From contig CAWITU010000002.1 of NCBI GenBank assembly GCA_963839205.1, forward strand, positions 75,034 to 139,033: DNA of 64,000 bases. The letters run 5' to 3'. A model generated the notes under the pieces. That model saw only the letters and a list, made by a program, of their open reading frames with translations. It did not search any database and was not told where the DNA came from. The first letter of the stretch is position 1. Each line of letters begins with the position of its first letter. This document shows positions 26,516 to 30,951 of this stretch, one piece after another. The position numbers and the translations under genes are program-made. This DNA comes from an uncultured bacterium (GTDB taxonomy: Bacteria > Patescibacteriota > Minisyncoccia > Phycocordibacterales > CAWITU01).

Positions 26516-27317
26516 ATGCCAAATTCCAGAGCACAAATAATAGCAACTGTCGGTCCAGCGTCTTCTAGTAAGGAGGTACTTTCAAGTATGGTTTTTCATC
26601 AAATGGATGTAATTCGTTTTAATTTTTCATGGGGGAATCTTGAGGAAAGAATTAATCAATTAAAACCATTCGTGAAATTGAAAAAGAGTCTGGCCGTAAG
26701 ATAATAATATTTATTGATTTACCTGGTCCAAGAATTCAGGATAATGCATTACATACATATGACCATGGTGCCATTTCTGCAATAACTGAGAATGATAAAG
26801 AGTTTATAAAATTTGCAGCAGAACAAAAAGTTGATTATGTTGCGGTCTCATTTGTGGGAGGTCCAGAAGATATTGAAAATTGTCGAGAAATTATAAAAAG
26901 TTTTTCTGGTACTCAAAAAATAATTGCAAAGATTGAAAGGGCGATTGCCGTTGAAGCAATAGATGAATTATTAAGGTCACCGACGCGGTTATGGTTGCAC
27001 GAGGGGATTTGGGTAGTGAAGTCCCAATTGAAAAGATCCCTTTTATTCAGGCTGAAATAATTAAAAAATGCAATGACGCTGGAAAACCGGTTATCACTGC
27101 CACTCAAATGCTTATTTCAATGGTAAACTCGCCATCTCCAACTCGGGCTGAAGTGACCGATGTTGCAAACGCTATTATTCAGGGCTCAGATGCTGTGATG
27201 CTTTCTGATGAGACTACAACTGGTAAATATCCAATTGAAGCTGTAACTATCATGGAGAAAATAGTACTTGAAGCCGAGAAACACATGGATGGGTCAAAAA
27301 CGCTACATCTTTTGTAA
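26516..27317 (+). pseudogene. pyk: Pyruvate kinase, split into 3 frames by at least 2 frameshifts (pseudogene or indel errors)
   Basis: PK segments 'IIATVGPASSSKEVL...FNFSWG' (frame of 26516), 'REIEKESGRKIIIFIDLPGPRIQ...DYVAVSFV' (next frame) and '[45 protein letters not shown]' (frame of 26991). Frame switches near 26655 and 26970. Confidence 0.7.
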
Positions 27318-27326
27318 AATAAAATA

Positions 27327-28560
27327 TATGTCAAAAATTAAATTAGTTAAAGCTTGTGAGATTATTGATTCGAGAGGGAATCCAACAGTTGAAGTCACAA
27401 TTGAGCTCGAAAATGGATAATCGCCAAAGCTGGAGTTCCTTCTGGTGCTAGCACCGGAATCCACGAAGCACTTGAGCTTCGAGACCACGATTTAAAAAGA
27501 TATAACGGTTTGGGAGTGCTCGAGGCTGTTAAGAATGTAAATGGTGAAATAAATCAATCTATAAAAGATAAGCATTTTGACCAAAAAAGTCTTGATCATG
27601 CCTTAATCGATCTTGATGGTACAGAAAATAAATCTAGGCTCGGTGCGAATGCAATTCTTGGGGTTTCTTTAGCTTTTGCAAAAGCTACGGCTCTTGAAGG
27701 CAAGAAGGAAATTTACGAGTATCTAGGAGAAATTGTTGGTAATAAGGATTTCAAATTACCAGAACCGATGTTTAATATTATAAATGGTGGCAAACATGCC
27801 GATAGTGGATTAGATATTCAGGAGTTTATGATTAGCCCAATTGGTTTTGCCACTATTCGAGAAAAAATACAGGCAGCTTCGGAAATTATCACGCACTCAG
27901 AAAGATTTTGAAAGATAAAGGTTATGCAATAAGCGTCGGAGATGAGGGAGGTTTTGCCCCAAAGCTTTCTTCAAATGAAGAAGCATTTGAATTAATAATT
28001 CAAGCAATCAAAGATGCAGGATACACAACTGAAGATTAAGATTGGGATAGACGCTGCTGCTTCAAGTTTCTTTGAAAATAATTCATACAACCTAAAAATC
28101 GGTGGCCAAGGAAAAAACCTGAATAATGGTGAGATGGTGGATTGGTATGAAAAATTAGTAGATACGTATCCTATTATTTCTATCGAAGATGGTTTAGCAG
28201 AAGACGATTGGCAAGGGTTTTCTTTAATGAATCAAAAATTAGGTAGTCGTATTAAGATCGTCGGAGATGATCTTCTGGTTACCAATGTTAAGAAAATACA
28301 AAAGGCGATTGATGAAAAGGCGGTGAGTTCGGTTTTAATTAAACCAAATCAAATTGGAACACTAACTGAAACCATTGAAGCTATAGAGTTATCCAAAAAA
28401 GAAGGGCCTGGCGCCTTTTGTCTCTCATAGATCTGGGGAGACCACGGATACTTTTATTGCTGATCTTGCGGTCGGGTTATCGTGTGATTTCATTAAATCT
28501 GGCTCATTAGTGCGTGGTGAAAGGGTTTGTAAATACAATAGATTATGGAGATTGAGGGAT
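27327..28560 (+). pseudogene. eno: Enolase, broken by at least 4 frameshifts
   Basis: 'MSKIKLVKA..IIDSRGNPTVEVTIELENG', 'AGVPSGASTGIHEALELRD', 'GANAILGVSLAFAKA', 'NIINGGKHA', 'KIVGDDLLVTN' and '[16 protein letters not shown]' are spread over three frames. Confidence 0.75.
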
Positions 28561-28586
28561 TATTGAAAAGGAATTTTAAAGAAACT

Positions 28587-28626
28587 AAAAAGGGCGGGCC
28601 TTTGATGTCGCCGCCCTTTTAGTTTT
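28587..28626. terminator. Bidirectional intrinsic terminator (eno / nrdJ convergent)
   Basis: aaaagggcgg-gcctttgatgtc-gccgccctttt. Confidence 0.7.
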
Positions 28627-28637
28627 AGTACCTTTTG

Positions 28638-30951
28638 TTAAAGAGCAATTTCACAAACTCCCGCTACACAAGCTAATTCCTTCTTAATATCAAGTTCATC
28701 GGTCTTTTCATATGTAATTATTTTTGAATAATCAATATGTTCAAGTCTTTTAGCTAGTTCGTTGTATCTCTTTTCATCAATTGGTTCGTACGGAGCTAAT
28801 TGGTAGACGTGATTGTCTCGAGGTAGGAATGAAAGGCCACCGACAATATCCCAGTTTTCATAAATCCAATTAGCGACAGTAATCCATTCATTTTCACCAA
28901 CAGAAATTGTTACAGAAGGATTGTGTTCGGTGTAATTAGTTTTTACTAATTTCCAATGCTCAAGTTGATCAATTGCAGTGATATCGTTTTTATAGAGTGA
29001 TCCAGCAGGAGATTTAACTGGGAATTCAAGAACATAAGTAGTTACATTATCACTTGATTGACCAACTTCTGGGAAGTAAGGAACACCCTGGTCTCTAAGC
29101 ATTTTGAATAGAGAATCAGTTGCTGAAATTCTAACTCTTCTAATATAGAAAGGAGCGTGACGAGGATGCATACCAGATGAACAGTCAACGGTCTGCGAAA
29201 GTGTGCCAGATGGTTTTACTGCTGTTGTACAAGTTGAAGGATTAATACCGAGTTTCTTTGCATAAATTTGGTTAACTCTGATAACTTCTTTTTTTAGTCT
29301 TTGAAGTACACCAGCATTTCTGACTAGCGGACAATCCCATTGACCGGTAATTGAAACACCAAGGAGTGCCTCCTTCTGACAATTTTCTTTCCATTGTTTT
29401 GAAAGATAAGGGAAGTTAGTTAAGCTCGCTTGATATGTTCCAAGGATAGTTGCGAGGCGGATTTTTTCCATAAGAGTTTTTTCGGCATCTTCCTTTCTGG
29501 CAACCACTTCAGACAAGTTACAAAATTGTTTTGATTGTAGAATAATTTCTCCGCAAGGATTGGTGCCGATAGATCCAACAATATTTTCCCCAGTTGGATC
29601 AAAGTAACCTTTATGTTCTTTCAGGACTTTAATGCGTCTCTCTGGAAGAGTTTTTGCAAGTGAACCTCTATTGAAGATCCCTCCTTCTCCAGAACCTGAT
29701 TTCATGAGGGCGATCCATTCTTCAAGAAATTCAGCATTTGTTGGCTTTTGGTTATAAACAGCTGAATCGTTCGCAAACATTCTTTGAGGTTCTGTAAGGT
29801 AGAAAGCGCCCTTTTTGGCGTCTCGAATCTCGGTATCATCAAAGTCTGAAAGTGAAATCATAGCGCTTCTTCTGACTCCTCCCGAGACAACACAGTCTCC
29901 AATCATACAAATAATGTCATGGACATCGATATTTCTAAGTCTACGTCCTTGTCGTGCAAGCATCTTTTCTCGTGTAAAAGAAAGAAGTCGGCGAAGTGGT
30001 TCTGGGCCAGAAGCTTTTCCTCCCATAGTTTTAAGTCTTGTTCCAGCAGGGCGTAACCCAGAGAAATCAAATTCAATATCATCTCCATTTGCCCATGCAG
30101 TCATACCAATTGTCAGAGAGTCTGCCCAACCTTCTTTACTATCAGGAATAACATGAGTTGGTAATTTTGTTCCCGTCTGAATTCAATCTGCGGAAATATT
30201 TAAACGTTTTGACTTTCTGTTGACCAACCTGCGGCGGGCCCGCGCATTCAAACATACATAATCTAAGCAAGATCTTGAAAACTCTCTGGTGCGATGTACG
30301 AACAATTGTATGCACAGACACTAGTTTTATTTGCAGCACCTCCAGCAAATTGTAAAAGTCTCATCGAAGGCATCGCTTTGTGATTGAAAATTCCTTCTCG
30401 AAGTTCCTTATATTCTAATTCTTTAATTTTGTTTCCGACATTTTGTTTCATGAAGGAAATATAGCAATCAACCGTATCAATCGAAGTCTCTCGTCTGTCT
30501 TCTTAGCAATCCATCTTGAGTAACTACGATAGTAAACAAATTCTCCGAGTGAATTTCTAAAATATTTTTTACTGTCCTCTGCTAATTTCTTAACCTTAGC
30601 AGGAACTTGAAGACCCTTTTCTCTAAGTTTGGCGCGCTTCTCTCTATATAGTATGTAAGTTTTGGAAGTTTTAACGTATTCGCTCAAAATAAGTTCCTTT
30701 TCTACCGTATCCTGTATTCCTTCAACCGTTGGAACTAAATTTTTATATTTTCTAGTGATGCGAAGTGCGTCAGCATAAACTTTATTTGCTACAAGCTCCG
30801 CTTCTTTGATGGATCCTTCATTAGCGGCAATCATCGCTTTACGAATTGCATTGATAACCTTCTGCATATCAAAAGGAACGATTGTCCCATCTCTTTTTAG
30901 AATGTTCTTAACGACCGTAACGCTTGGGGCAATCTTCTTTTTTGATGGCAT
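28638..30951 (-). pseudogene. nrdJ: Class II (adenosylcobalamin-dependent) ribonucleotide reductase, frameshifted in its middle
   Basis: N-terminal ATP-cone ORF 30448-30951 ('KRDGTIVPFDMQKVINAIRKA'). C-terminal ORF 28638-30104 has 'FDFSGLRPAGTRLKTMGGKASGPEPL' and active site 'GTNPCGEIIL'. Between 30104 and 30460 the reading frame changes at least 3 times ('AMPSMRLLQFAGGAANKTSVCAYNCSYIAPESFQDLA' and 'VIPDSKEGWADSL' are in different frames). Confidence 0.7.

What the first reader, a model, noticed from the sequence alone, without database searches (positions are those of the whole stretch)
26516..30951. Cluster of frameshifted essential genes: pyruvate kinase, enolase and class II RNR
pyk is read in 3 frames, eno in at least 3 frames with 4 or more switches, and nrdJ changes frame 3 or more times within ~350 nt (30104-30460, a GC-rich stretch ccgcggcgggcccgcgc). 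No premature stops by substitution are evident; the damage is all indels. The flanking genes pyrD and the 2-hydroxyacid dehydrogenase are intact, as is a 1467-nt stretch of nrdJ. Simultaneous loss of lower glycolysis and dNTP synthesis would be remarkable. Localised indel errors or collapsed strain heterogeneity are equally plausible.
Basis: seen in the sequence. Interest (0 to 1): 0.6.

Follow-up and report, generated by a model that had tools for sequence, protein, structure and literature searches.

The report
Assembly-error tract, not dead genes
The broken pyruvate kinase, enolase and ribonucleotide reductase genes are almost certainly single-base consensus errors in a strain-variable stretch of a metagenome assembly, not real loss of essential genes, so the finding is ordinary.

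Summary
The frame disruptions exist in the sequence, but they were partly misdescribed and are very probably technical. The window comes from a Paceibacterota (CPR) genome. pyk has 2 frameshifts and eno has 5. nrdJ has only 2 frameshifts, plus 3 in-frame stops made by substitution, so "all indels" is wrong. The damage also continues well beyond the finding, to about 37.6 kb. It hits a DUF4430 gene, a surface-protein gene, uppP and a DedA-PAP2 gene, for at least 31 frameshifts and 5 stops in about 11 kb. None was detected in the flanks.

Two short sibling contigs from one ENA metagenome assembly (L161, L162) cover window 26323-34323. At all nine pyk/eno/nrdJ frameshift sites both siblings keep the reading frame, and the window alone has a 1-2 nt indel. 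The three nrdJ stops and the GC-rich patch are also private to the window. Each sibling carries its own, different lesions: L161 in pyk, L162 eight in nrdJ.

dN/dS between the window and the siblings is 0.03-0.12, and conserved residues are intact. The indels are not associated with homopolymers.

Best reading: noisy consensus in a region with competing haplotypes, confidence about 0.88. Interest is low.

The parts
24372..26501 (+). Clean left flank: pyrD (24372-25520) and a D-2-hydroxyacid dehydrogenase (25530-26501). Both are intact.
   Evidence: Full-length Pfam matches. Frameshift-aware alignment to the L003/L016 orthologues finds no internal lesion. Changes at conserved columns are at background level.
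26323..34323 (.). Stretch that also exists as two short alternative contigs, L161 (8010 nt) and L162 (7641 nt), in ENA assembly ERZ25039472. Both begin at window 26323/26325. The window is a mosaic of their haplotypes.
   Evidence: Window vs L161 is 87.2% identical, vs L162 90.8%, and L161 vs L162 81.7%. Window 26900-27850 is about 98-100% identical to L161 and 30600-32660 is about 99-100% identical to L162.
26516..27317 (+). Short (~265 aa) pyruvate kinase with two window-private 1-nt deletions, at 26662 and 26965.
   Evidence: 0 of 61 conserved columns are changed. dN/dS is 0.03-0.12.
27328..28623 (+). Enolase with five window-private indels: 27417 (-1), 27892 (-1), 28032-33 (-2), 28407 (+1), 28544 (-1). 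The 3' end is uncertain.
   Evidence: The frame-restored protein aligns over residues 4-413 to solved enolase 4yws at E=1.9e-130, with SHRSGET, VGDDL and IKxNQIG intact. dN/dS is 0.04-0.07.
28638..30951 (-). Class II ribonucleotide reductase (ATP-cone plus barrel; 771 aa in relatives). The C-terminal 1467 nt are clean and the N-terminal third is interrupted.
30184..30504 (-). Error-dense patch inside nrdJ. It holds 1-nt deletions at 30504 and 30184, stops at 30265-63 (TAG), 30250-48 (TGA) and 30202-00 (TAA), and the private GC-rich string at 30230-30245 that replaces the conserved CGTGAG codons.
   Evidence: 5 of 43 highly conserved columns are changed here, against 4 of 206 in the clean C-terminal part. 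Every one of these changes is absent from both L161 and L162.
31318..31814 (+). DUF4430-type small secreted protein gene with four +1 lesions (31352, 31416, 31727, 31751). Three of them are shared with L162.
31821..33900 (+). Prenyltransferase/squalene-cyclase-repeat surface protein (631-690 aa in relatives) with about 8 lesions: 32083, 32661, 32719, 32784, 32923, 33383, 33417, 33655.
   Evidence: L162 carries only one lesion in this gene, and it is a different one.
33997..35198 (+). Lesion-free island inside the tract: a DUF6580 membrane protein (33997-34527) and a 6-phosphogluconolactonase-like gene (34524-35198).
35224..36050 (+). uppP (undecaprenyl-diphosphatase, BacA) split by two frameshifts, at about 35565 and about 35663.
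   Evidence: The Pfam BacA profile is split 1-110 / 139-257 over two ORFs. Frameshift-aware alignment.
36601..37900 (+). DedA-PAP2 fusion gene (~440 aa in relatives). This is the most damaged gene, with 8-9 frameshifts and 2-3 in-frame stops (TAG 37028, TGA 37055, possibly TGA 37466).
   Evidence: The homologues are only 26-37% identical, so the exact count is approximate.
37924..38829 (+). Clean right flank: folD, intact.

Best explanation
This is an approximately 11-kb tract (about 26.6-37.6 kb) of poor consensus sequence in a metagenome-assembled Paceibacterota contig.

The locus is strain-variable. At least three haplotypes, 82-91% identical to each other, were assembled for it. Two of them are separate short contigs that start at the same base.

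Inferred mechanism: in such a region the reads are split or mixed between competing versions, so consensus and polishing work poorly. Random single-base indels and a few substitutions are left behind. Read literally, these break pyk, eno, nrdJ and four neighbouring genes. In the organism the genes are most likely intact and functional.

Shown: the lesions are private to this contig, the sibling contigs carry different lesions, the genes bear the signature of purifying selection, and the damage is patchy and sharply localised.

Inferred: the sequencing technology (the contig_N names suggest a long-read assembler) and the exact step at which the errors arose.
For: (1) At all nine pyk/eno/nrdJ frameshift sites both sibling contigs L161 and L162 have a base (or lack the extra one) that keeps the frame. 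The window alone has the 1-2 nt indel. The three nrdJ stop codons and the GC-rich patch are also window-private single changes.

(2) The siblings have their own private lesions elsewhere. L161 has an extra T that splits pyk. L162 has about 8 indels in nrdJ, exactly where the window is clean. L162 also has 1 lesion in the surface-protein gene, where the window has 8 others.

(3) Where the window is 98.5-100% identical to a sibling, the only length differences are the frameshift lesions. The substitutions there are mostly synonymous.

(4) dN/dS between the window and the siblings is 0.03-0.12 for pyk, eno and nrdJ. Between the two siblings it is 0.024-0.05.

(5) Few conserved residues are changed: 0 of 61 columns in pyk and 2 of 99 (both conservative) in eno, despite 7 frameshifts. 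The frame-restored enolase aligns end to end with solved enolases.

(6) The damage is patchy within single genes. In nrdJ there are 5 disabling lesions in 320 nt next to 1467 clean nt.

(7) All lesions are 1-2 nt. No larger deletions are seen and gene lengths are preserved.

(8) The damage is sharply localised: at least 31 frameshifts in about 11 kb against 0 detected in the flanks. The left edge lies just after the point (26323) where both alternative contigs begin.

(9) The density, about 280 frameshifts per 100 kb, is of the order reported for unpolished long-read metagenome assemblies (474 indels per 100 kb, against 23 after polishing; PMC6487183). Short-read polishing is known to fail where reads multi-map (PMC8812927).
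Against: No reads or coverage could be inspected, so the errors are not directly demonstrated.

The indels are not enriched at homopolymers (mean longest run within 6 nt is 3.30 against a background of 3.27, p=0.48). That is not the classic nanopore error pattern. It argues equally against natural slippage mutations.

Three lesions in the DUF4430 gene (31352, 31416, 31751) are shared by the window and L162. These are either systematic errors or real mutations of that haplotype.

No sibling contig was found for 34.3-37.6 kb, so the uppP and DedA-PAP2 lesions rest on distant homologues only.

Indel direction differs between the halves of the tract: mostly deletions before 30.5 kb and mostly insertions after 31.3 kb. 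This is unexplained.
Confidence: 0.88

Rival explanations
1. Genuine, very recent pseudogenisation. One co-existing strain has really accumulated these indels and stops across an 11-kb block, losing pyk, eno, nrdJ, uppP and others. It survives on its host or on co-resident strains.
For: CPR/Patescibacteria are host-dependent with reduced metabolism (general knowledge). Three DUF4430 lesions are shared by two contigs. nrdJ shows 9 changes at highly conserved columns, against a mean of 1.6 and a maximum of 5 in 128 homologues.
Against: The pyk/eno/nrdJ lesions are private to one contig, and the siblings carry different lesions. dN/dS is 0.03-0.12. No conserved residue is lost in pyk or eno. About 31 tiny indels with no large deletions and no homopolymer bias is unlike natural bacterial indel spectra (general knowledge of mutation-accumulation studies). 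The roughly 55 genes outside the block are untouched. Within nrdJ the lesions sit in a 320-nt patch rather than being spread over the dead gene.
Confidence: 0.06
2. Chimeric consensus. The tract was built from a mixture of reads of two or more haplotypes, and the frameshifts arise where the consensus switches or averages between them. This is a specific sub-mechanism of the artefact.
For: The window alternates between blocks almost identical to L161 and blocks almost identical to L162. The lesion at 26965 lies at the switch from L162-like to L161-like sequence, around 26900-26960.
Against: Most lesions lie inside homogeneous blocks rather than at switches, for example 27417, 31727 and 32083. 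The residual substitutions against the near-identical sibling are mostly synonymous. This suggests a real third haplotype, possibly a natural recombinant, rather than a read mixture.
Confidence: 0.3
3. Programmed recoding (ribosomal frameshifting, transcriptional slippage or stop-codon reassignment) lets the genes be expressed as written.
For: None specific.
Against: Orthologues in 160 related loci and both siblings are uninterrupted at these sites. The sites have no long homopolymer or slippery motif. All three stop codons occur in frame in nrdJ, while the same codons terminate neighbouring genes.
Confidence: 0.005

Closest known systems
Gene fragmentation by residual indel errors in long-read (meta)genome assemblies (described in PMC6487183, PMC12007338 'Kastor', PMC9262707)
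   Same: Single-base indels split otherwise conserved genes into adjacent ORFs in different frames. The density is comparable with unpolished assemblies. Comparison with close references restores full-length proteins.
   Different: Here the errors are confined to one ~11-kb tract rather than spread over the contig. They are not homopolymer-associated. The technology of the source assembly is inferred, not known.
Regions that escape polishing because reads multi-map to near-duplicate sequence (Polypolish paper, PMC8812927)
   Same: The damaged tract coincides with sequence present in at least three competing versions in one assembly. The flanks are clean.
   Different: The duplicates are strain haplotypes 82-91% identical overall (with near-identical blocks), not exact genomic repeats. 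Whether any polishing was attempted is unknown.
Genuine pseudogene accumulation in host-restricted bacteria (e.g. Mycobacterium leprae, Sodalis; general knowledge)
   Same: Multiple frameshifts and stops in formerly functional genes.
   Different: Real decay is genome-wide and includes larger deletions. It shows relaxed dN/dS and loss of conserved residues, and it is reproducible between sequences of the lineage. None of this holds for the pyk/eno/nrdJ lesions.

Membership tests
Genuine pseudogene (evolutionary gene decay) | Disabling lesions (frameshift or stop) in a gene that has intact orthologues | tested here: met
   2, 5 and 2 frameshifts plus 3 stops in pyk, eno and nrdJ.
Genuine pseudogene (evolutionary gene decay) | Relaxed selection: raised dN/dS and loss of conserved residues | tested here: not met
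   dN/dS is 0.03-0.12. 0 of 61 (pyk) and 2 of 99 (eno) conserved columns are changed. nrdJ shows an excess, concentrated in the 320-nt patch.
Genuine pseudogene (evolutionary gene decay) | Lesions reproducible in independent sequences of the same lineage | tested here: not met
   All nine indels and three stops are absent from L161 and L162, even in blocks 98.5-100% identical to the window. Three DUF4430 lesions outside the finding are shared with L162, which is inconclusive for that gene.
Genuine pseudogene (evolutionary gene decay) | Lesions supported by the underlying reads | not testable with these tools
   No reads or coverage are available. The source contig (probably the 279,057-nt contig of P0121) could not be retrieved.
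Assembly/consensus error tract | Lesions are 1-2 nt indels (plus a few substitutions) with gene length and order preserved | tested here: met
Assembly/consensus error tract | Different copies of the same region carry different, non-overlapping lesions | tested here: met
   L161 has its own pyk lesion. L162 has 8 nrdJ lesions where the window is clean. The window has 8 lesions in the surface-protein gene where L162 has 1 other.
Assembly/consensus error tract | Coincides with a region that is hard to assemble (competing haplotypes or low depth) | tested here: met
   Both sibling contigs begin at window 26323/26325, and the first lesion is at 26662. No sibling was found for 34.3-37.6 kb, and depth is unknown.
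Assembly/consensus error tract | Homopolymer association (typical of nanopore, 454 or Ion Torrent errors) | tested here: not met
   The longest run within 6 nt of 27 lesions averages 3.30 against a background of 3.27, p=0.48. The errors look context-random.
Programmed ribosomal frameshift / recoding | Frameshift site conserved in orthologues, with a slippery sequence | tested here: not met
   Orthologues are uninterrupted and no slippery or homopolymer motif is present.
Enolase (phosphopyruvate hydratase) | Enolase_N and Enolase_C domains with catalytic motifs over the full length | tested here: met
   Pfam hits on the fragments. The frame-restored protein aligns over 4-413 to PDB 4yws at E=1.9e-130.
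Class II ribonucleotide reductase (NrdJ) | ATP-cone, RNR alpha and barrel domains; about 770 aa; collinear with orthologues | tested here: met
   The cobalamin dependence that defines class II was not tested. The class assignment rests on homology.

The most novel reading that the evidence does not exclude
The lesions are real. One member of a mixed Paceibacterota population carries an ~11-kb tract in which lower glycolysis (pyk, eno), dNTP synthesis (nrdJ) and undecaprenyl-phosphate recycling (uppP) were knocked out very recently by a localised burst of small indels. It persists by drawing on its host or on co-resident intact strains.
Probability: 0.05. Interest if true: 0.6.

Novelty: not a real feature. 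Interest (0 to 1): 0.07.

Why it matters
Taken at face value, the window would suggest a CPR bacterium that has just lost lower glycolysis, ribonucleotide reduction and a cell-wall lipid-carrier phosphatase. That would feed directly into metabolic reconstructions of these symbionts. Showing that the lesions are private, patchy, selection-blind single-base noise prevents a false 'gene loss' call.

It also flags that window 26.3-37.7 kb should be re-polished or replaced before annotation. What is biologically real here is smaller. The locus is strongly strain-variable, with at least three haplotypes at 82-91% identity and near-identical blocks shared pairwise. This fits recombination around surface-protein genes, and it is probably why the assembly failed at this spot.

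Tried and rejected
- Exact-protein look-ups of six intact or long window ORFs and of P0121 found no retrievable source contig.
- Scans of GTDB genomes and JGI metagenomes with NrdJ found only other species, at most 87% aa identity. These were useful as references but not as a same-strain check.
- A codon-usage frame plot was too noisy to map frameshifts.
- My frameshift-aware aligner gives false positives at gene ends and with homologues below about 30% identity. I therefore re-ran it with stricter penalties and report conservative counts. The DedA-PAP2 count stays approximate.
- The homopolymer hypothesis for the indels was tested and rejected.
- Rfam and tRNA scans of the window were empty.
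- A search for a near-identical uppP sibling found nothing closer than 77%.
- Suspicious ORF-poor spots outside the tract (6.7-7.6 kb and 15.2-15.8 kb) had no Pfam hits, so frameshifts there can be neither shown nor excluded.
- Alternative genetic code and programmed frameshifting were considered and rejected. All three stop codons occur in frame, and the sites are not conserved.
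Full report
WHAT THE WINDOW IS

The window is about 38% GC. Its NrdJ fragment is at most 87% identical to proteins of Paceibacterota / Taylorbacteria-like MAGs. In relative L003 the gene order pyrD, 2-hydroxyacid dehydrogenase, pyk, eno, then nrdJ on the opposite strand is the same, and every gene is a single ORF. The locus is therefore in its native context.

CHECKING THE OBSERVATION

Three-frame translation and Pfam confirm the gene identities. I aligned the L003 proteins to the window DNA with a frameshift-aware aligner. 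I later aligned the window nucleotide by nucleotide with two close relatives.

- pyk has 2 frameshifts: 26662 and 26965, each with 1 nt missing.
- eno has 5: 27417 (-1), 27892 (-1), 28032-33 (-2), 28407 (+1), 28544 (-1).
- nrdJ has only 2: 30504 and 30184, each -1.

Between the two nrdJ frameshifts lie three in-frame stop codons made by single substitutions: TAG 30265-63, TGA 30250-48 and TAA 30202-00. There is also a burst of changes that turns the conserved MCGTGAGWS motif into MRGPAAGWS. Its description of nrdJ, and its statement that there are no substitution stops, do not.

THE CLUSTER IS LARGER THAN REPORTED

I ran tblastn of all ORFs from 160 related loci against the window. I then made targeted alignments and Pfam searches. 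Frame breaks continue downstream of nrdJ:

- a DUF4430 gene at 31318-31814, with 4 lesions;
- a prenyltransferase-repeat surface protein at 31.8-33.9 kb, with about 8;
- uppP at 35224-36050, with 2 (the BacA profile is split 1-110 / 139-257);
- a DedA-PAP2 gene at 36.6-37.9 kb, with 8-9 frameshifts and 2-3 stops.

Inside the tract three stretches are clean: 28638-30104, 33997-35198 and probably 36047-36538. folD at 37924 and everything checked beyond it is intact, as is everything left of 26.5 kb.

That gives at least 31 frameshifts and 5 stops in about 11 kb. None was found in roughly 15 kb of homologue-covered flank.

IS IT DECAY OR NOISE?

Several independent tests point the same way.

(a) Conserved residues. 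pyk has 0 of 61 changes at family-conserved columns. eno has 2 of 99, both conservative. This is the same as ordinary homologues, despite seven frameshifts. The frame-restored enolase aligns over residues 4-413 with solved enolases at E=1.9e-130. Each 'X' placed at a frameshift site matches exactly one residue.

(b) Distribution within nrdJ. Five disabling lesions and 5 of 43 conserved-column changes sit in a 320-nt patch. The next 1467 nt are clean, with 4 of 206 changes. A dead gene should decay evenly along its length.

(c) Lesion size. All lesions are 1-2 nt. No larger deletions occur.

(d) Sequence context. The indels are not associated with homopolymers (p=0.48). This is unlike natural slippage mutations.

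THE DECISIVE COMPARISON

I searched the large protein collection with the frame-restored enolase. This found two close relatives, at 93% and 87% identity. Both are on short contigs of one ENA assembly, ERZ25039472: contig_111733 (L161, 8010 nt) and contig_56138 (L162, 7641 nt).

Both contigs start at window 26323/26325. They run to 34323 and 33957.

Overall identities:
- window vs L161: 87.2%
- window vs L162: 90.8%
- L161 vs L162: 81.7%

The window is a mosaic. Positions 26900-27850 are about 98-100% identical to L161. Positions 30600-32660 are about 99-100% identical to L162. Elsewhere the window is intermediate.

At each of the nine pyk/eno/nrdJ frameshift sites both siblings keep the frame and only the window has the indel. 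The three stops and the GC-rich patch are likewise private to the window. The siblings read GGCGCCAGTTCCACACAT where the window has TGCGGCGGGCCCGCGCAT.

Where the window is near-identical to a sibling, the only length differences are the frameshift lesions. Seven of the ten substitutions against L161 are synonymous.

The siblings carry their own private lesions:
- L161 has an extra T that splits pyk.
- L162 has about eight indels in nrdJ, where the window is clean.
- L162 has one lesion in the surface-protein gene, where the window has eight others.

dN/dS between the window and the siblings is 0.03-0.12 for the three genes. This is as low as between the siblings themselves.

Random, copy-specific single-base lesions laid over sequences that evolve under strong purifying selection are what consensus noise looks like. 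Gene loss does not look like this.

LIKELY MECHANISM (INFERRED)

The contig_N names suggest a long-read assembler. The identical start of both short contigs suggests an assembly-graph branch point at about 26.32 kb. Beyond that point several haplotypes compete for reads.

Residual indels of this density are documented for unpolished long-read metagenome assemblies: 474 per 100 kb, falling to 23 after polishing (PMC6487183). Polishers also fail where reads multi-map (PMC8812927).

The protein P0121 is identical to window 34524-35198. It sits on a 279,057-nt contig recorded in NCBI and ENA, which is probably the source contig. It could not be retrieved.

WHAT REMAINS OPEN

- No reads were available.
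- Three DUF4430 lesions are shared by the window and L162. They may be systematic errors or real mutations.
- The 34.3-37.6 kb part has no close sibling.
- The early lesions are mostly deletions and the later ones mostly insertions. I cannot explain this.
- Whether the mosaic is a natural recombinant or a chimeric consensus is unresolved. The mostly synonymous residual differences favour a real third haplotype.

VERDICT

The frame breaks are present in the sequence as given, but they are very probably not a biological feature. Confidence in the artefact is about 0.88, in genuine recent pseudogenisation about 0.05, and in recoding well under 0.01. Interest is low. The practical value is to prevent a false claim that glycolysis and dNTP synthesis were lost, and to mark 26.3-37.7 kb for re-polishing.

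Noticed in passing
window 232-2785: A complete diversity-generating retroelement. It comprises a reverse transcriptase (232-1209, minus strand; PF00078), a bAvd accessory protein (1198-1602; PF22296), a template repeat (1617-1741) and a variable repeat (2105-2229, 86% identical). Every mismatch is a T in the template against C or G in the variable copy on the + strand, i.e. adenine-specific on the minus strand. The variable repeat lies at the 3' end of a minus-strand ORF (2084-2785, 233 aa, no Pfam hit). This explains the 52% GC bump at 2-3 kb.
   Followed up: partly
window 26516-27317; L003, L162: The pyruvate kinase of this clade is a 'mini' enzyme of about 262-278 aa. It consists only of the A-domain TIM barrel. 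The B-domain lid (about residues 94-167 of PDB 2e28) and the whole C-terminal domain are absent. The short form is conserved as a single ORF in relatives. Whether such a protein is an active pyruvate kinase was not examined.
   Followed up: partly
window 26323-34323 vs L161/L162: At least three co-occurring haplotypes of a core-gene block (pyk, eno, nrdJ, two surface-protein genes) differ by 9-18%. They share near-identical blocks pairwise (26900-27850 with L161, 30600-32660 with L162). This suggests recombination between related populations around cell-surface genes.
   Followed up: partly
window 31352, 31416, 31751 (DUF4430 gene); L162 5050, 5114, 5448: Three +1 lesions are shared by the window and sibling contig L162, unlike all other lesions. 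They are either context-specific systematic errors or a real disruption in that haplotype.
   Followed up: partly
window 26.6-30.5 kb vs 31.3-37.6 kb: Indel direction differs along the tract. There are 7 single-base deletions, one 2-nt deletion and one insertion in pyk/eno/nrdJ, but mostly single-base insertions in the downstream genes. This is unexplained.
   Followed up: no
window 7550-8221 and 6.7-7.6 kb: An IrrE/Peptidase_M78-type gene (PF06114) lies next to about 900 nt with only short overlapping ORFs on both strands and no Pfam hits. It may be a small mobile or toxin-antitoxin-like module, or further sequence damage.
   Followed up: no
window 3161-4240: A D12-class N6-adenine DNA methyltransferase gene lies just downstream of the retroelement.
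   Followed up: no
window 28590-28625: The convergent eno/nrdJ intergenic terminator hairpin has one unpaired extra G in its left arm (GGGCGGGC vs GCCGCCC). The restored eno frame runs through it to a TAG at about 28621. The true eno stop may be hidden by another small indel near 28573, where the three contigs differ in length.
   Followed up: no
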